A stretch of 64,000 bases of DNA from assembly GCF_055900595.2 (NCBI RefSeq), contig NZ_CM148325.1, one strand, 5' to 3'. The position numbers were made by a program, and so were the translations under genes. Below, piece after piece: positions 740 to 7,887 of this stretch. Under the pieces are notes generated by a model. It made no database searches, was not told the DNA's origin, and worked only from the letters and a program-made list of their open reading frames with translations. Within the stretch, counting starts at the first letter, position 1; each line of letters begins with the position of its first letter.

Positions 740-3700
740 TTAAAATCTTACATAATCACTAAATATATCTCTAAATTCATCAAGTTCACTTTGAGTTGGT
801 CTTTCCCATCGGTCAGTATTTCTATTCATTCGATGTTGGATATTTTTCCTAGAGATATCCCTCATAGATGTGACAATTTCAGAACCATCTTTTTCAATTA
901 TATGTGCTCTGCCATTTGGTCCCAGTACAACCCACCGCCCATCTGATTGCTTTAATATATCGCTAGAACGCGCATTTTGAAGATCATTAATAACAGCACC
1001 AATAGGTCGACCTTCACGATGCCGTTGTAAAGCATGACTACTTTTCTTCAAAGTAGCACACATCTGTCCCAACGGATCGATCCAACTTAATGGATTCGGT
1101 GCATATTGATAGAGATTCAGTCCCCCCGCCAGCCCTATCGGGTCCGTTACCATGAACCGCCCGACATCCGGATCATAGTACCTGTGCAGATTGTAATGCA
1201 GCCCTGTTTCCCTGTCGAGGTACTGTCCCTGGTAGCGCAGGTTCTGCTCCACCCCGCCGTGGTCCTTCTCCTGTATCGTGTTACCCCAGACCTGATACCC
1301 CGTCTCCCACACGATTTTCCCGTCACTGTCCGTCATCTCTTCCGGCGCACCGTTCACATCCGTGTGAAAATACAGTATCCGGTTCGGTCCCTCTTTGCCC
1401 GCCTTATCCACCCGCGCCAGCGGTTCATAACTCCCCTGGTCACTGTAGATATACAGGCTGCCTGTTCCCTCCGGCCTGCTCTCCTGCGCCAGCCGCATTC
1501 CGTCCCATAAAAATGTCGTCCGGTTATACGGTTTACCGTCAGGGCTGATGTGCTGTTTTTCCGTCCGCCTCCCCAGCGCATCGTACACATACCGGTACGT
1601 TCCCCGCGCTGTCGTCACTTCCACCATCCGGTGTTCCGCATCATAACGGTAACTCTGCGCTCCGCTCCGGCCCTGCTTTTCCACCGTCCGGCCAAATTCG
1701 TCGTAACGGTAGTGCACACCACGGTAAGACATCAGCCGGTTGAACGGCACAACGCTGTTTTCTGCCGTGGCCCTTTCCCCCGCACGCCGCCCCAGCAGGT
1801 TTCCCGCCGCGTCGTACTGCCAGCTCGCCAGATACCCCTCATCCTCCGAGCGGCACGCCGTGATGCGCCCCGTGGGGTCGTAGAAGTAATCCGTTTCCCC
1901 CCGCCGGCTGTGCCGCGTCTTCAGCAGTTCATCCTCGCCGCTGTAGCTGTACTGCCGGTCCGTGAACGTCTCCGGTACCACCCCGCGCATCCCGCTGTAT
2001 GTCTCCCTGCGCTTCAGCCGCCCGGCGGTGTCGTAAAGCTGCCGCGTGCTCAGTCGCCCCTGACTTCTGAGCACCTCCCGGTGCAGGGCGTCACGTGTGA
2101 ACTCGCTGATGACCTCCCGGTCCAGATTTATCTGCTGGAGATGGCCGCTGCCGTAGTACAGATGGCGCTGCGTTCTGCCGTCCGGAAAGGTGGTGGCTGT
2201 CCGGTTGCCCAGTTCATCGTACTGATGGGTCAGGACGCCCTGCGCCGTCTCCTCGGTCAGCATCCGCCCCAGTCTGTCGTAACTGAAGCGGATAACTTCC
2301 GGCGCGTCAGTTTCGTGCCGCTGGCGGCGGATTTCCAGTAGCTGGTCTGCCGCATCATGGACGTATTCCGTATGGCTATCGGCTGTCTCCTTTGCCGTGA
2401 GCCGGCCCGCCGCATCGCGCGCCAGCCGGTGACGGATTTCACCGCCCCGGTCCCCGGTGAACACCACTTCCGTGACCGCGTTCAGCGCGTTGTAACGGTA
2501 CGCCTGGCGGCAGCCGTCCGGATTTATCTGCTCCGCCAGACGGTCCAGCACATCATGGCGGAACCGGTAGCTTTCTCCGTTCTCGTTCGTGAGCGTGACC
2601 AGACGCCCGTAAGCATCGTACCCGAACGCCGTCCTGCGCCCCGTCGCGTCTGTCCGGCTGCGCACCCGGCCCTGCCCGTCCCGCTGCCAGCGCGTTATCC
2701 TCCCCATCGGGCTGGTGTACTTCACCAGCCTGCCCGCCGCGTCCGACTGGTAATTCACCGTGCGGCCGTCCGCCAGTATCACCTCCGTCAGATGACCGCT
2801 GTCGTCATACCCGTAGCGCGTGCTGTGGCTCTGCGCGTCTGTCATTCTGATAAGCCGCGTGCGTTCGTCGTAGAACCAGGCCGTCTGCGAGCCGGAACAG
2901 TCCGTGTGCCGCATGAGCTGCCCGTCTTCGTTCCACTGAAGGTATTTATTCCCCCCACGGGCATCGGTTATCTGCACCACCTGGCCGTGGCGGTCATACT
3001 GATACCGGGTGTTCTGCTGCAGCGGGTCGGTCACCGCAAGAAGATTGCCGCGTTCATCGTACTCACAGCACCAGCTGTTCCCCGCCGCGTCCACCTCCGT
3101 TTCCGGCTGGTGCCACACCGGGTGCCACTGTGTCTGTGCCACCCGCCCCAGCGGGTCGTGCGTCTCCGTGATATGCCCCTGCCGGTCATACACATAGCGC
3201 CATTTGCCGCCCTGCGCATCGCTCATTCCCAGTAACAGCCGTTCTTCGTCGCTCCAGCGGAACGTCGTCACCTGCCCGGCTTCGTCCTGGTACGCCGTCA
3301 CCTGGTTCTGCGCATCCCACTGATGATAACGCGTGCGCCCCAGCCCGTCCGTCACGCACAGCCTGCGTGCCGCCAGGCTCCACGCCAGCCGGTACTGTTC
3401 ACCGCTGTCCGTGTGGTGCCCCGTCACCCGCCACGCTGCGTCATCCGGGCCTTCATACCAGCCCCACTGGTAATAATACCCTTCGCCGCCCGGCTGGCGG
3501 TGCAGGGTCATGCAGTGGTTTTCGTCGTAAGCAAACTCACGCAGCAGGTGCCCCGTGCTGTCGTACACGCCGTTCAGGTCGCCGGCCTCGTCATAGCGGT
3601 AACGACGCAGCAGTAAAGGAGCCGTCTCAGGGAAATGCTGATAAATCTGTGTCACCCGCCGGGGATGCGCCGCCAGTTCATAATGCAGACGAATGCACGG

Positions 3701-5371
3701 ACGCTGCTGTTCACCGCTGATTTGCGTGATGCGCCCCAGCTCGTCGTAGTACAGATTCAGACAGTTGCTGTTGCGGTCGCCCAGCATTTTCAGCCGCTGG
3801 CGCTGCGGGTGATGCGGGTCGGCTTCAAACAGAAAAAACTGCCCGTCATCGCTGCTGATAAGCCAGTGCCCCTGCTCACCCCGCCGTACTGCCAGTCCTT
3901 CGCCGGGGCTGTAAAACCCGCTCCCCGGCAGCACGGCCTCCATATCCAGGCGTCGTCCCATGCCCGACACAAAGGTCATACAGTTTTCGTCAGCAGTACC
4001 CGGCGTGCGCTCGAGGCTGACTTCATACATCACGCTCCAGCCCTGCCCGAACATCCCTTCCGTGCGGTCGTCACGACTGCTGTACACGCGCTGCCAGTCC
4101 AGCGGAAAGTGGCCCGGCAGACTGAAATCGAAGTCATCGTCATCCGCCAGATATTTGGCTCCGGTGGCGGCATTGACCGGATGCGGAAGGGCACTGATGG
4201 CCTTCTGCGTCATCACCCCCATCCCGACACTGGCAGCAAAACAGGCGATTTTAGAAAGCATTTTGCCCGGGCGAAGAAACATCAGCGCCACGGTTGCCAC
4301 CAGGGTTATCTGCGACCTGCCGCTTCTGATATCCCTGACCACCAGTAACGGACCGCCAATGCGGACATCCGGTGACAAAAACGCCCCGTTCCCCGGCTCA
4401 TTCACCACCCTGGCCTCGCAGGTACAGCGTGCCCCGCTGCGTGCCGCCGGCTGGCTGTTGATACGCACATCCCGCGCGCCTTCCGCGATATATTCCGCTG
4501 CGGGCGGTTCATCATCGCCTTTGAACAGATTACTGATGCTGCCAATAACCGCATTCACTCCCTGAAAGGCGGTTTCCAGCATACCGCCCGGACTCAACAG
4601 GTTAAGGGCCGTTCCCAGGGGGTCATCCAGAAAGGCGGCTTTTTTTTGTGCGAGAAACTGCGTCAGTGAGGAGGGATGTTTATGGCAGTCGATTTTATCG
4701 TCAGGGGTCGGGGTGGAGCCCGGGGCCGCACTGGCCACGGTGGGCTGCCATAGTTCCGACACAAAATGTGTCACGCCATCCACCATTTCAGAACGCCCTT
4801 CTTCCGTACTGAGCTGGTCGTGCAGCGCCCGGGACATCAGCACAGGCCCTGTCACCGGGTTAACCGCCAGGGCTATGGCCCCCGCCATTTCCAGATATTC
4901 CCCGGCCACATCCAGAAACGTTCTGGCATCCTCCTGACGCTGCGCTTCTTCCTGTTCCGCCTTCGCCTTCGCCTGCGCCTCCTGCGCCTCAATGTCCTGC
5001 CGTGATGCCGCAGTCGCCGCGGCCCGCGCGGCAGGTTTGCTGTTGATCCATGTGTCGCCAGAGCCGGTGAGGATGTAACCTTCAATCTGAGGCGGGAAAA
5101 GCCAGTTCGCCAGTTGCTCACTTTCCCTACTGATTCGGTCATTCCAGCCCTGATACGACATAAATACCGCTGTTGCTATACCGATCGCTAAAATGGTTGA
5201 GCAGCCCAGCGTTGCCACTTCAACTCCGCCCAGCGCCGCCATGGTTCCGACAACCAGAACATCCACCAGGGCTGTGGCGGCAACCTCTACAACTGCCCCC
5301 AGCACATCTGCTATAAACGACGTATGCAGCAGGGCATCACCCTGCCTTGCTGCCCAGAATGCCTCTTCCAT
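740..5371 (-). CDS. prePAAR/PAAR-Rhs type VI secretion effector, 1543 aa
   Basis: N-terminus carries an AARxxDxxxH prePAAR motif (AARQGDALLH, residues 7-16) and hydrophobic segments flanking a PAAR-like region. Long YD/Rhs repeat core follows. Core ends with [26 protein letters not shown], then a 108-aa C-terminal tip. Confidence 0.9.
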   Translation of the reverse strand: MEEAFWAARQGDALLHTSFIADVLGAVVEVAATALVDVLVVGTMAALGGVEVATLGCSTILAIGIATAVFMSYQGWNDRISRESEQLANWLFPPQIEGYILTGSGDTWINSKPAARAAATAASRQDIEAQEAQAKAKAEQEEAQRQEDARTFLDVAGEYLEMAGAIALAVNPVTGPVLMSRALHDQLSTEEGRSEMVDGVTHFVSELWQPTVASAAPGSTPTPDDKIDCHKHPSSLTQFLAQKKAAFLDDPLGTALNLLSPGGMLETAFQGVNAVIGSISNLFKGDDEPPAAEYIAEGARDVRINSQPAARSGARCTCEARVVNEPGNGAFLSPDVRIGGPLLVVRDIRSGRSQITLVATVALMFLRPGKMLSKIACFAASVGMGVMTQKAISALPHPVNAATGAKYLADDDDFDFSLPGHFPLDWQRVYSSRDDRTEGMFGQGWSVMYEVSLERTPGTADENCMTFVSGMGRRLDMEAVLPGSGFYSPGEGLAVRRGEQGHWLISSDDGQFFLFEADPHHPQRQRLKMLGDRNSNCLNLYYDELGRITQISGEQQRPCIRLHYELAAHPRRVTQIYQHFPETAPLLLRRYRYDEAGDLNGVYDSTGHLLREFAYDENHCMTLHRQPGGEGYYYQWGWYEGPDDAAWRVTGHHTDSGEQYRLAWSLAARRLCVTDGLGRTRYHQWDAQNQVTAYQDEAGQVTTFRWSDEERLLLGMSDAQGGKWRYVYDRQGHITETHDPLGRVAQTQWHPVWHQPETEVDAAGNSWCCEYDERGNLLAVTDPLQQNTRYQYDRHGQVVQITDARGGNKYLQWNEDGQLMRHTDCSGSQTAWFYDERTRLIRMTDAQSHSTRYGYDDSGHLTEVILADGRTVNYQSDAAGRLVKYTSPMGRITRWQRDGQGRVRSRTDATGRRTAFGYDAYGRLVTLTNENGESYRFRHDVLDRLAEQINPDGCRQAYRYNALNAVTEVVFTGDRGGEIRHRLARDAAGRLTAKETADSHTEYVHDAADQLLEIRRQRHETDAPEVIRFSYDRLGRMLTEETAQGVLTHQYDELGNRTATTFPDGRTQRHLYYGSGHLQQINLDREVISEFTRDALHREVLRSQGRLSTRQLYDTAGRLKRRETYSGMRGVVPETFTDRQYSYSGEDELLKTRHSRRGETDYFYDPTGRITACRSEDEGYLASWQYDAAGNLLGRRAGERATAENSVVPFNRLMSYRGVHYRYDEFGRTVEKQGRSGAQSYRYDAEHRMVEVTTARGTYRYVYDALGRRTEKQHISPDGKPYNRTTFLWDGMRLAQESRPEGTGSLYIYSDQGSYEPLARVDKAGKEGPNRILYFHTDVNGAPEEMTDSDGKIVWETGYQVWGNTIQEKDHGGVEQNLRYQGQYLDRETGLHYNLHRYYDPDVGRFMVTDPIGLAGGLNLYQYAPNPLSWIDPLGQMCATLKKSSHALQRHREGRPIGAVINDLQNARSSDILKQSDGRWVVLGPNGRAHIIEKDGSEIVTSMRDISRKNIQHRMNRNTDRWERPTQSELDEFRDIFSDYVRF
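743..1066 (-). other. Rhs C-terminal toxin domain (108 aa after the DPLG junction), activity unknown
   Basis: Sequence after IDPLG: QMCATLKKSSHALQRHREGRPIGAVINDLQ...DEFRDIFSDYVRF. Composition drops sharply to AT-rich relative to the GC-rich core. Confidence 0.6.
1074..1185. repeat. Direct repeat copy 2 (Rhs core/CT junction within the full-length rhs)
   Basis: ~85% identical to 188..301. Confidence 0.7.
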
Positions 5372-5389: not shown

Positions 5390-5842
5390 TTAATTCGTCC
5401 CGGCTTCCTGCCGTATCCTGAAGCGCAGATTCTTTTTAATTTCAGCCCAGCGCGTCATATCTGCCGGGGTCAGCGGTGTGGTTCTGGCGTAGGTGAAGGC
5501 CATCATGACCCGCTCACCCGGCAACACAAATGCCACCTGACACTGGTACACCTGCTCGTTACCCCGGAGAAACTGACTCTGTATTTCCAGCCCTTCTTCA
5601 CCGTCATTAATCCCTACCCGTGTTACCTGAACGGGCGTGTAGTGAAGATCCTTTACCTGTTTCTCCAGTTTTTTCATTTGCTGTTCAATCTGGGAGGCTA
5701 ATTCGTCTCCTTCCTGCATCTGGCCCCGGCTGATAATGAGTGCAGCGTCGGGATCGCTGAGACGCAGCATATTAATCGTACTGTCCTGAATAATATTCCC
5801 GGGGAAAGTTACAACAGTTTCATTGAGATAATACTCCGTCAT
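5390..5842 (-). CDS. DUF1795/EagR-family chaperone for the prePAAR-Rhs effector, 150 aa
   Basis: Sits between vgrG and rhs on the same strand, 18 bp upstream of the rhs start; size and N-terminal pattern (MTEYYLNETVVTFPG) fit the Eag family. Confidence 0.65.
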   Translation of the reverse strand: MTEYYLNETVVTFPGNIIQDSTINMLRLSDPDAALIISRGQMQEGDELASQIEQQMKKLEKQVKDLHYTPVQVTRVGINDGEEGLEIQSQFLRGNEQVYQCQVAFVLPGERVMMAFTYARTTPLTPADMTRWAEIKKNLRFRIRQEAGTN

Positions 5843-5892: not shown

Positions 5893-7887
5893 TTATTTTT
5901 TAGTCATGAAGGTGACGTCTATTGCCAACTGAAGGGCTGTTTTCTCCGATGTTCCAGGCGGAGGTATATCTGCCGCTCTGTCATTCATATTTAAATCAAG
6001 CTGCCCTGATTGTGTATTTATCTTTCCATTTTCCGTTGCGGTAATATTAAAATTCTTACAGGTTATATTAAATATTCCGTCACTGGTCATTTGCAGGATA
6101 GTTTCTCCGCAGCTAAGAATAATGGAATCTCCCGCAGCAAGGCGTAAATTCTGTACGGCCTGAATCGTTTTATTTCGTCCGGCAAGGGAGGTATCATCCG
6201 TCTGGACTGTTAGAGAACGTTTCTCACCAATAATCGCAGTTTCTGTTTTATCAATGACTTTAAGGCGATTATTGCCCACCCAGTGGCTTTCATTATTATT
6301 TACTTCAATGCGTTGATCTTTCTCGGCATGCAACCAGATTTCTTCTCCGCCAGTTTTATCCTCAAAACGCAAGGCGTTAGCATTGGTCGGGCCGCCGCCG
6401 ATAGTGTGGCTGTAAAACCCGCTTTGCGTCGCTGCGCCCGGTAGTCCCCACGGTGGCATGGTGTCCTGATTGTAGGTACGCCCAACGATTATCGGTAAAT
6501 CCGGATCACCGTTTTTGAAATCCACCAGTACTTCCTGACCAATGCGCGGGATCTGAATGCCACCGAATCCTTTACCCGCCCACGGATAACTGACACGGAC
6601 CCAGCAGGAACTGTTTTCATCATTCTTACCGTAACGATCCCAGCCAAACTGAACTTTCACCCGGCCATATTTATCTGTCCAGATTTCCTGTCCCGTCGGG
6701 CCGGTCACGATGGCGCTCTGCGGGCCTTTAGTATGGGGTTTGCTCAGGGTTCGCTGCGGGCGGTAAACTTCGCTGGTGGGATGCAGTTCAAAGCTGGTTG
6801 AGTAAGAGAAATGCTGCTCCTGGCCGCTGTGTTGCGCATTGTCCTGTATAAATAGCGTGGTCTGAACCAGCAGATATTCCCGGTTCACTTCGGCTGTCGG
6901 ATAGTTTTCCAGGGTGAAGGTAAAACCTGTCATCAGGGTACGAATATTGCCGCTGCCCTGTACCCGACTACCGGGGCTACACTGTTCTTCCATGCGGATG
7001 CGTGTCAGCATTTCACCTTCACTCTTTGTGAAGTAGTCTCCCGGCCATTCGTAGTGCTCATATTCAGCAAGGCCAGTTTCACGCGGATTAGCCACGGTGC
7101 TCTTGAGCAGTGAACGCGGCTTCATAAAGTCGAAATCATTTAGTACCCACTGTCCGCTGCGCAGGCTTTCATTTGCTGTGATGGTATGGATAAATTCCTT
7201 GTCCAGTTTCAGCCCTTTCTGGTAATAACACACCAGTGGCGAATCTGCGCACGCCTTGTGGACATTAATGGCATCAGCCAGCACTAACGTGTGACTGTTC
7301 TCGTTGTGCTCAAACCACCAGTAGATACCCCACTCCTGCATCAGGCGCTGAATAAAATCGAAATCTGTTTCACCGTACTGCACCTGCCAGGCGCGAGTCG
7401 GATAATTTTCCACCAGTCGTTTTTCCACTGGCCAGGGGTACTCATCCAGTACCTCATCCAGGATCTCCACCACGTTTTTATTTTGAAACGCTTTGTAGTC
7501 ACTAGTGTGGGTCAGTATTTTTAACCACGGTTCAATCCGCAGTTCATACACCACCGAACGTCCTTGATGACCAGCCACGCGTGCCGCCGTCACCAGCCCG
7601 CTGATATAACGTTTTCCGCCGCCATCCAATTCGATATTGACGCACAGATCTTTGCCCACCATCGGTTTGAGCTGCAGGTTGGCTGCGGGGGAAACATAGC
7701 CCAGGTTCAGGATGTCAGGAGTTTTTAATTTAATAGAATAAGTAAATAGTTCCCCTACTGTTTCTGTCCCCCCTAAGCTTGCAAACAGTAACATTCCATC
7801 AGGAACTGCGCTGCCGCTCAAAGTCACGTTATGTGTACCCGATCCAGTTAGTGCGCCGGATGGATAATCTGTAGCTGCAAAACTCAT
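5893..7887 (-). CDS. vgrG: VgrG type VI secretion spike protein, 664 aa
   Basis: gp27/gp5-like hallmark segments ([62 protein letters not shown]) with a C-terminal beta-helix-like repeat region; 3' end is AT-rich. Confidence 0.9.

What the first reader, a model, noticed from the sequence alone, without database searches (positions are those of the whole stretch)
4920..5000. Low-complexity charged Ala/Gln/Glu/Lys linker in the Rhs N-terminal region
A GCC/GCG-rich repeat encodes EAQEAQAKAKAEQEEAQRQE between the first hydrophobic segment and the PAAR region. Such repeats are slippage-prone and could vary in length between strains; the opposite strand gives a spurious poly-Arg ORF.
Basis: seen in the sequence. 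Interest (0 to 1): 0.3.

Follow-up and report, generated by a model that had tools for sequence, protein, structure and literature searches.

The report
Charged helix inside Rhs toxin's PAAR tip
The flagged stretch is an ordinary acidic alpha-helical spacer in a known E. coli type VI secretion Rhs toxin; its length is almost fixed across strains, and this genome carries a rare 6-base duplication adding one Ala-Lys.

Summary
Window 4920-5000, minus strand, encodes RQDIEAQEAQAKAKAEQEEAQRQEDART (aa 124-151) of a 1543-aa class I prePAAR Rhs effector (740-5371), downstream of vgrG and a DUF1795/Eag chaperone gene. It is the lowest-complexity and most hydrophilic part of the N-terminus.

It is predicted as a single 25-residue helix (pLDDT about 90). 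It is acidic, not amphipathic, and has no heptad seam, so it looks like a spacer, not a coiled coil.

Length variation between strains is minimal. No best-matching place in 207 complete E. coli genomes carries the window's allele, and every listed row but one has the same length. All 17 metagenome contigs and 26 of 27 Escherichia protein variants share that length, as do the Salmonella relatives. The window is the exception: a 6-bp duplication (AGGCGA x2 to x3) adds one Ala-Lys and is seen on one contig only. Across the wider family the loop ranges from 0 to 93 aa.

The antisense ORF is Leu/Arg-rich, not poly-Arg, and spurious. Low interest.

The parts
740..5371 (-). Class I prePAAR Rhs effector gene, 1543 aa. 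Order: prePAAR, TMD, split PAAR, DUF6531, RHS repeats, RHS core, about 110-aa C-terminal toxin.
   Evidence: ORF, translation, Pfam RHS_repeat 3.5e-77, DUF6531, RHS, PAAR_motif. The exact protein equals HFT1105155.1 from E. coli.
5324..5353 (-). prePAAR motif AARQGDALLH (aa 7-16)
   Evidence: Read directly from the sequence. A7, A8, D12 and H16 are nearly invariant in alignment A2. Predicted as beta strands 6-16.
5099..5323 (-). Single transmembrane/hydrophobic region (aa 17-91)
   Evidence: The only Kyte-Doolittle 19-aa windows at or above 1.6 in the first 420 aa lie in residues 13-73. AF2 helices at 19-48, 57-74 and 76-91.
5012..5095 (-). PAAR piece 2 (aa 93-120, PQIEGYILTGSGDTWINSKPAARAAAT)
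   Evidence: A spliced construct extends the Pfam PAAR_motif match to profile positions 5-69 of 70, E = 1.2e-13. R116 and A117 are invariant. AF2 strands at 95-100 and 112-114.
4928..5002 (-). The finding: acidic Ala/Gln/Glu/Lys linker helix (aa 124-148, RQDIEAQEAQAKAKAEQEEAQRQED)
   Evidence: AF2 helix 124-148 with block pLDDT of 90-92 for residues 121-140 and 80 for 141-150. Entropy, charge and hydrophobic-moment analysis.
4957..4974 (-). Three-copy 6-bp micro-repeat (gene strand AGGCGA AGGCGA AGGCGG). One unit is a private duplication that adds Ala-Lys. Its exact placement within the array is ambiguous.
   Evidence: DNA alignments against eight E. coli loci. The nearest protein, P0176, differs by this indel. 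TRF row 4958-4980.
4745..5011 (-). PAAR-internal insertion A (aa 121-209). Contains the linker helix plus three more helices and ends in the conserved HFVSELWQ that precedes PTVA.
   Evidence: AF2 helices at 124-148, 152-170, 175-188 and 190-208. The family length range for this segment is 0-93 aa.
4676..4744 (-). PAAR piece 3 (aa 210-232, PTVASAAPGSTPTPDDKIDCHKH)
   Evidence: C229 is invariant in A2. AF2 strands at 211-213 and 226-229.
4508..4675 (-). PAAR-internal insertion B (aa 233-288), helical and specific to this clade
   Evidence: It is 54-60 aa in the Escherichia, Salmonella and P0044 sequences, 3-10 aa in most other homologues and 24-29 aa in two. AF2 helices at 236-284.
4328..4507 (-). 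PAAR piece 4 (aa 289-348), the only part Pfam detects in the intact protein
   Evidence: Pfam PAAR_motif covers aa 293-323, profile positions 39-69. AF2 strands at 293-344.
5390..5842 (-). Eag-type chaperone gene (DUF1795/DcrB family, 150 aa)
   Evidence: Pfam DcrB, 6.4e-19. RefSeq annotates the orthologue as 'DcrB-related protein'.
5893..7887 (-). VgrG spike gene (664 aa)
   Evidence: Pfam Phage_GPD 3.6e-97, Phage_base_V, Gp5_trimer_C.
4766..5005 (+). Antisense 79-aa ORF with a Leu/Arg-rich tail. Spurious.
   Evidence: Translation. Substitutions are 1 synonymous: 21 non-synonymous in this frame, against 15: 7 in the Rhs frame.

Best explanation
The stretch encodes a solvent-exposed, acidic, single alpha-helical spacer (aa 124-148). 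It leaves the second PAAR strand of a class I prePAAR Rhs type VI secretion effector and leads into a helical insertion looped out of the PAAR cone.

The PAAR fold is assembled from four discontinuous pieces: prePAAR 6-16, 93-120, 210-232 and 289-348. The TMD and two helical insertions bulge out between them. The linker's likely job is geometric and solubilising. It would hold the downstream amphipathic helices (TFLDVAGEYL ... HFVSELWQ-PTVA) at a set distance and then return the chain to the cone. That would explain why composition and length are kept while sequence drifts.

The micro-repeats are a by-product of encoding Ala/Glu/Gln/Lys with GCG, GAG, CAG and AAG codons. They occasionally slip. 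This genome carries one such event, a 6-bp duplication that adds Ala-Lys. The event is probably recent and close to neutral.

Shown here: gene identity, the split PAAR fold, the predicted helix, length conservation and the private indel. Inferred: solvent exposure, the spacer role and neutrality.
For: - **Gene context.** Pfam identifies the Rhs, Eag and VgrG genes.
- **Split PAAR.**
  - Pfam sees only profile positions 39-69 in the intact protein.
  - It sees positions 5-69 once the TMD and both insertions are spliced out, with E improving from 3.4e-08 to 1.2e-13.
- **Helix.** DSSP assigns helix to 124-148, with block pLDDT of 90-92 for residues 121-140 and 80 for 141-150.
- **Spacer character.** Mean hydropathy is -2.0, hydrophobic moment 0.13 and net charge -4. 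There are 7 opposite-charge i/i+3 or i+4 pairs and no hydrophobic heptad positions.
- **Length constraint.**
  - The INS...GEY segment is 49 aa in every E. coli, Shigella, E. marmotae and Salmonella sequence examined, although Salmonella is only 58% identical overall.
  - 195 bp is the span in essentially every listed complete genome.
  - All 17 metagenome contigs have the common length.
- **Family scale.** The same loop ranges from 0 to 93 aa. Acidic residues outnumber basic ones in 32 of the 36 sequences that have a loop.
- **Private indel.** The nearest relative, P0176, is 1539/1543 identical and lacks the Ala-Lys. The exact window protein is on record on one contig only.
Against: - No coordinates or contact map were available, so whether the helix is exposed or packed is not known. 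A pLDDT near 90 could mean it packs against other helices.
- AF2 was run with only 42 sequences, and the neighbouring helices (152-190) score poorly (pLDDT 52-65).
- Strict length conservation from Escherichia to Salmonella could reflect a specific binding function rather than a passive spacer.
- The +6 bp allele rests on a single assembly and could be an error.
- No experiment on this region was found in the prePAAR/Rhs papers read.
Confidence: 0.68

Rival explanations
1. This is the first reader's reading: a hypermutable repeat. The GC-rich repeat would act as a slippage hotspot whose copy number differs between strains and tunes or diversifies the effector.
For: Two slippage-type in-frame indels were found in this about 100-bp GC-rich region. 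One is +6 bp in the window, from AGGCGA x2 to x3. The other is -9 bp in E. coli AST85, between GCCGCG direct repeats.
Against: - No best-matching place in 207 complete genomes carries the +6 allele, and only one genome among the listed rows deviates in length at all.
- All 17 metagenome contigs have the common length.
- 26 of 27 Escherichia protein variants have it.
- The array has only 2-3 copies of a 6-bp unit.
- TRF rows of similar score occur about once per 5 kb in this window.
- All changes are in frame, so there is no on/off switching.
Confidence: 0.05
2. A coiled-coil or specific docking helix. The helix would pair with another helix, from the Eag chaperone, VgrG, a baseplate component or the second insertion. 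Its exact length would be conserved for that reason.
For: - Length is conserved exactly between Escherichia and Salmonella even though Salmonella is only 58% identical overall and the linker sequence clearly differs.
- The helix has high pLDDT.
- Published cross-linking shows Eag contacting regions of a related Rhs beyond the TMD (PMC8636562).
Against: - There is no hydrophobic heptad seam, and Ile127 is the only large hydrophobic residue.
- The hydrophobic moment is 0.13.
- In most family members the equivalent segment is Pro/Glu-rich and cannot be helical, or is absent altogether, as in P. laumondii Rhs1 (7PQ5) and six representative homologues.
Confidence: 0.17
3. An intrinsically disordered acidic linker that acts as an entropic tether rather than a helix.
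For: - The segment is low-complexity and strongly hydrophilic.
- Homologous loops elsewhere are Pro-rich and acidic, and so are likely disordered.
- The whole PAAR region (75-267) of P. protegens RhsA was unresolved by cryo-EM (PMC8765631).
Against: - In this clade the segment has no Pro or Gly and is made of strong helix formers (Ala, Glu, Gln, Lys).
- AF2 calls one continuous helix with pLDDT near 90.
- Exact length conservation is unusual for a disordered tether.
Confidence: 0.08
4. The extra 6 bp in the window is a sequencing or assembly artefact, not a real allele.
For: The exact protein is on record on one contig only, from a third-party-annotated assembly. No other genome, metagenome contig or protein variant shares it.
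Against: - A clean, in-frame gain of one unit of a 6-bp repeat is the expected signature of replication slippage. It is not a typical short-read assembly error.
- The same record has two other private substitutions relative to its nearest relative, consistent with a slightly diverged real lineage.
Confidence: 0.1

Closest known systems
Class I prePAAR Rhs effectors with Eag (DUF1795) chaperones, defined by Ahmad et al. 2020, eLife 9:e62816 (PMC7773334)
   Same: The protein has the AARxxDxxxH motif, a single N-terminal TMD region, a 'split PAAR' completed by prePAAR, an Rhs cage, an upstream Eag gene and an upstream vgrG.
   Different: The paper describes a two-part split: prePAAR plus PAAR. 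Here the PAAR fold is interrupted twice more, by about 89 aa and about 56 aa of helices. None of the papers I read mentions the charged linker.
Pseudomonas protegens RhsA (PDB 7Q97; Guenther et al. 2022, PMC8765631)
   Same: It matches the window's N-terminus in three stretches, with E = 3.7e-26. It has the same motif order: PAARAAG, an acidic loop, FLDMAKEFFSQMWRPTVAS, CxKH and YLAEGS. Its 'PAAR domain' is given as residues 75-267, far larger than a 93-aa orphan PAAR.
   Different: Its loop is roughly 30 aa and rich in Pro, Gly, Glu and Thr, so it is probably not helical. It lacks the second insertion. That region was not resolved in the structure.
Photorhabdus laumondii Rhs1/Tre23 (PDB 7PQ5; Jurenas et al. 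2021, PMC8636562)
   Same: A prePAAR-TMD-PAAR-postPAAR-Rhs architecture that depends on EagR.
   Different: It has no loop at this position. The sequence runs PAARATTD...C.KHPAPPLIAQGS directly, which shows that the linker is dispensable for the fold.
Orphan PAAR protein c1882 of E. coli (PDB 4JIW)
   Different: c1882 is one contiguous 93-aa chain with no TMD or helical insertions.
Charged single alpha helices (ER/K-type SAH domains); comparison from general knowledge
   Same: A helix-favouring E/K/R/Q/A composition, i to i+4 opposite-charge pairs and no hydrophobic seam.
   Different: It is only 25 residues long, net acidic (-4), and richer in Ala and Gln than in Lys and Arg. Stability as an isolated helix is untested.

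Membership tests
Class I prePAAR Rhs T6SS effector | N-terminal AARxxDxxxH (prePAAR) motif | tested here: met
   AARQGDALLH at aa 7-16. The positions are nearly invariant in A2.
Class I prePAAR Rhs T6SS effector | One TMD region, N-terminal to the PAAR domain, with no second TMD after it | tested here: met
   The only TM-grade hydropathy in the first 420 aa lies in residues 13-73. The segment 158-179 peaks at 1.41, below the 1.6 cut-off, and is not hydrophobic in Salmonella.
Class I prePAAR Rhs T6SS effector | PAAR domain completed by prePAAR | tested here: met
Class I prePAAR Rhs T6SS effector | Rhs/YD repeats and an RHS core with a C-terminal toxin | tested here: met
   RHS_repeat 3.5e-77 in 11 stretches, and RHS core at aa 1332-1368. 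The C-terminal toxin has no Pfam match.
Class I prePAAR Rhs T6SS effector | Adjacent Eag (DUF1795) chaperone gene and vgrG | tested here: met
   DcrB/DUF1795 family at 5390-5842 and VgrG at 5893-7887, both on the same strand.
Class I prePAAR Rhs T6SS effector | Eag-dependent stability and T6SS-dependent delivery | not testable with these tools
   This needs co-purification and competition assays.
Coiled coil | Heptad periodicity with hydrophobic a/d positions | tested here: not met
   The heptad columns contain only Ala and polar residues plus one Ile. The hydrophobic moment is 0.13.
Charged single alpha helix (SAH) | A long E/K/R-rich helix stabilised by i/i+4 salt bridges and monomeric in solution | tested here: inconclusive
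   There are 7 opposite-charge pairs and a predicted continuous helix. It is only 25 aa, net -4 and Ala/Gln-rich. Behaviour in solution is untested.
Hypermutable simple-sequence contingency locus | A many-copy tandem array with frequent copy-number polymorphism among strains | tested here: not met
   The array has 2-3 copies of a 6-bp unit. One variant length appeared among the listed rows from 207 genomes, none among 17 metagenome contigs, and 1 among 27 protein variants, that one being the window itself.

The most novel reading that the evidence does not exclude
The Escherichia/Salmonella class I prePAAR Rhs effectors may carry a dedicated two-part helical module of about 145 residues, inserted into loops of the PAAR cone and opened by a length-locked acidic helix. 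This module, rather than being filler, could be a functional element of spike loading or membrane entry. For example, it could be a second docking surface for Eag or the baseplate, or a ruler that positions the chaperoned TMD relative to the VgrG tip. If so, the window's Ala-Lys insertion would shift the helix register by about 200 degrees and alter delivery.
Probability: 0.2. Interest if true: 0.4.

Novelty: new member of a known kind. Interest (0 to 1): 0.12.

Why it matters
It matters little for the scan. The gene is a recognisable T6SS Rhs effector, and the flagged stretch is a spacer with one private two-residue indel.

Two modest points are worth keeping:
- Domain annotation of these effectors under-calls the PAAR domain. 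The fold is interrupted three times, so Pfam sees only its last third. The published 'split PAAR' picture (two parts) is an under-description for this clade.
- The loop after the second PAAR motif varies from 0 to 93 aa across the family but is length-locked from Escherichia to Salmonella. That gives a clean natural series for anyone testing what the unresolved region of Rhs N-termini does. The window's +Ala-Lys allele and the AST85 PAAR-motif deletion are ready-made natural variants.

Tried and rejected
- **Sequence search of the PDB** with the window and Salmonella N-termini found RhsA (7Q97) and Rhs1/Tre23 (7PQ5) but no solved structure covering the linker. For that reason I do not equate the Salmonella homologue with the crystallised Rhs1 fragment.
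- **Pfam on the insertion alone** gave only noise: Ribosomal_60s at 0.041 and Auts2 at 0.067.
- **Control sequence.** It is not used as evidence.
- **Pfam on the C-terminal toxin and the downstream ORF** found nothing.
- **Literature.** Searches of five prePAAR/Rhs/Eag papers for 'linker', 'insertion' or 'loop' found no description of this segment.
- **Second TMD considered and rejected.** Residues 158-179 reach a hydropathy of only 1.41 at most, contain two Pro, have pLDDT about 52, and are polar in Salmonella.
- **Function for the antisense ORF considered and rejected,** on the substitution pattern.
Full report
**What is at the coordinates**

Window 4920-5000 lies inside a 1543-codon ORF on the minus strand, 740-5371. 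Its reverse complement, read in that frame, gives RQDIEAQEAQAKAKAEQEEAQRQEDART, aa 124-151.

Pfam identifies the protein as an Rhs toxin: RHS_repeat 3.5e-77, DUF6531, RHS core, and a partial PAAR_motif at aa 293-323. The N-terminus carries AARQGDALLH, the prePAAR motif. Directly upstream on the same strand are a DcrB/DUF1795 (Eag-type) gene at 5390-5842 and a vgrG at 5893-7887.

This is the class I prePAAR effector architecture defined by Ahmad et al. 2020 (PMC7773334). Flanking genes are an amino-acid permease, a YncE-like propeller, a TonB-dependent receptor, a GntR regulator and an oxidoreductase. That marks a vgrG-eag-rhs island in ordinary E. coli chromosome. From memory of the K-12 map it is the rhsE neighbourhood; I did not test this. 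The DNA is 99.3% identical to an E. coli chromosome, and the exact protein is HFT1105155.1 from E. coli.

**Is it more than chance?**

The low complexity is real:
- The segment is the lowest-entropy 25-aa window of the protein (2.46 bits).
- It lies in the lowest 0.03% of 18,652 windows from long open frames of the window.
- Only 12 of 2000 composition-preserving shuffles of the Rhs protein reach the reference entropy of 2.53 bits.
- It is also the most hydrophilic 19-aa stretch of the first 420 residues.

At the DNA level the 'repeat' is modest. TRF reports a 6-bp unit x3.8 and a 9-bp unit x2.1, with scores of 38-39. Twelve other rows of similar score occur elsewhere in the 64 kb.

**Where it sits in the protein**

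In fact INSKPAAR (aa 109-116) precedes it directly.

- Pfam matches only profile positions 39-69 of PAAR_motif in the intact protein.
- When I spliced out the TMD and two intervening segments, the match extended to positions 5-69 and improved from 3.4e-08 to 1.2e-13.
- An AlphaFold2 model of aa 1-400, built on 42 homologues (pLDDT 76, pTM 0.70), places beta strands at 6-16, 95-120, 211-229 and 293-344, with helices everywhere between.

So the PAAR cone is assembled from four separate pieces. The linker is the first element of a roughly 89-aa helical insertion (aa 121-209) looped out of it. A second insertion (aa 233-288) follows the CxKH motif.

The published 'split PAAR' concept covers only the prePAAR/PAAR split. 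The extra interruptions are not discussed in the papers I read, although RhsA's 'PAAR domain' is quoted as residues 75-267 and was unresolved.

**What the linker looks like**

- AF2 predicts one continuous helix, 124-148. Block pLDDT is 90-92 for residues 121-140 and 80 for 141-150.
- It contains no Pro or Gly.
- Mean hydropathy is -2.0, hydrophobic moment 0.13 and net charge -4.
- It has seven opposite-charge i/i+3 or i+4 pairs.
- Its heptad columns contain only Ala and polar residues plus one Ile.

This is not a coiled coil. It resembles a short charged single helix, or spacer.

**Length variation**

*Within E. coli*
- Alignment against five E. coli loci shows that the window has one extra 6-bp unit. 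On the gene strand it reads AGGCGA AGGCGA AGGCGG where the others read AGGCGA AGGCGG. The result is AQAKAKAEQ instead of AQAKAEQ.
- 207 of 5426 complete E. coli genomes hold the region, at 380 places.
- No best-matching place exceeds 96.5% identity to the 201-bp query, so none has the window's allele.
- In the 60 best and 60 evenly spread rows (overlapping samples), every place spans 195 bp.
- The one exception is strain AST85, at 186 bp. Its 9-bp deletion lies upstream, between GCCGCG direct repeats. It turns PAARAAAT into PAAAT and removes an Arg that is invariant in the family alignment.

*Other samples*
- A gapped-pattern scan of metagenome contigs found 17 matches, all with the common 6-nt gap.
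- Of 27 distinct Escherichia protein sequences gathered, 26 have the short form. The one long form is the window's own record, which is known from one contig.
- Its nearest relative, P0176, is 1539/1543 identical and lacks the Ala-Lys.
- E. marmotae, Shigella and Salmonella relatives all keep exactly 49 aa from INS to GEY. Salmonella is 58% identical overall and its linker sequence clearly differs.

Slippage therefore does happen here, but the length is effectively fixed. The window's allele is a singleton, and I cannot exclude that it is an assembly error.

*Family scale*

An exhaustive HMMER search (124 hits) and alignment show that the segment between PAARAAx and PTVA ranges from 0 aa to 93 aa. 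Six homologues have none, and P. laumondii Rhs1 (7PQ5) also lacks it. It usually begins with an acidic, often Pro-rich low-complexity stretch and ends in a conserved amphipathic helix, sF[LI]DxA...W[QR]PTVA. Acidic residues outnumber basic ones in 32 of the 36 sequences that have a loop. P. protegens RhsA has a loop of roughly 30 aa, rich in Pro, Gly and Glu. The Ala/Gln/Glu/Lys helix is the Escherichia/Salmonella version of a generally acidic, variable PAAR loop.

**Antisense ORF**

The + strand ORF 4766-5005 ends LRFFLFRLRLRLRLLRL, which is Leu/Arg-rich rather than poly-Arg. Substitutions among E. coli alleles are 15 synonymous: 7 non-synonymous in the Rhs frame and 1: 21 in the antisense frame.

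**Interpretation**

The best-supported reading is a structural, acidic helical spacer that opens a clade-specific helical insertion in a discontinuous PAAR domain. Its length is constrained within the clade. The window carries a recent, probably neutral slippage duplication.

| Reading | Confidence |
|---|---|
| Structural acidic helical spacer | 0.68 |
| Specific docking helix | 0.17 |
| +6 bp is an artefact (concerns only the extra 6 bp, so it is independent of the structural readings) | 0.10 |
| Disordered tether | 0.08 |
| Hypervariable contingency repeat | 0.05 |

The gene is a new member of a known kind, and the finding itself is ordinary.

Noticed in passing
window 5096-5293 (Rhs aa 27-92), compared with loci L004 and L005: The TMD-coding segment is a sharply bounded mosaic cassette. 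It has about 52% DNA identity between two groups of E. coli alleles, while the prePAAR codons and everything downstream are 94-100% identical. The C-terminal 103 aa of the adjacent Eag chaperone are nearly identical in both groups (100-103 of 103). One chaperone type may therefore serve two very different TMDs, or the specificity may lie in its unseen N-terminal third.
   Followed up: partly
L006 (E. coli AST85, NZ_AP043644.1), equivalent to window about 5020-5036: A 9-bp in-frame deletion (GCCGCGCGG, between GCCGCG direct repeats) converts KPAARAAAT to KPAAAT. It removes the Arg of the PAAR motif, which is invariant across 42 family members. This is possibly an inactivating natural variant, in a gene that is still annotated as intact.
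   Followed up: partly
window 4508-4675 (Rhs aa 233-288): A second helical insertion in the PAAR domain, between CxKH and YIAEG. It is 54-60 aa in the Escherichia, Salmonella and P0044 sequences, 3-10 aa in most other homologues and 24-29 aa in two. AF2 predicts three helices with pLDDT 77-88.
   Followed up: partly
window 740-1080 (Rhs C-terminal about 110 aa) and ORF 410-736 (108 aa, minus strand): The toxin domain after the DPxGL-type core end, and the downstream presumed immunity protein, have no Pfam match. The exact 108-aa sequence is not in the 15-billion-protein collection. The toxin activity is unknown.
   Followed up: no
loci L003, L005 and L008 (E. coli strains 181.1, 2A, A36): The orthologous Rhs gene is annotated as a frameshifted or incomplete pseudogene in several complete genomes. 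Many database entries are N-terminal fragments. Part of this may be decay of the locus and part assembly difficulty.
   Followed up: no
window 740-5371 compared with the whole window: The Rhs gene has 59.6% G+C against 49.4% for the 64-kb window. It also carries several long antisense ORFs (for example 1550-2341, 2357-3235 and 3635-4348 on the + strand). These are most likely by-products of its composition.
   Followed up: no
E. coli complete genomes: Genomes that have this N-terminal region usually have it twice (median 2 places, up to 3; 380 places in 207 genomes). That indicates paralogous vgrG-eag-rhs islands sharing a near-identical PAAR/linker module.
   Followed up: no
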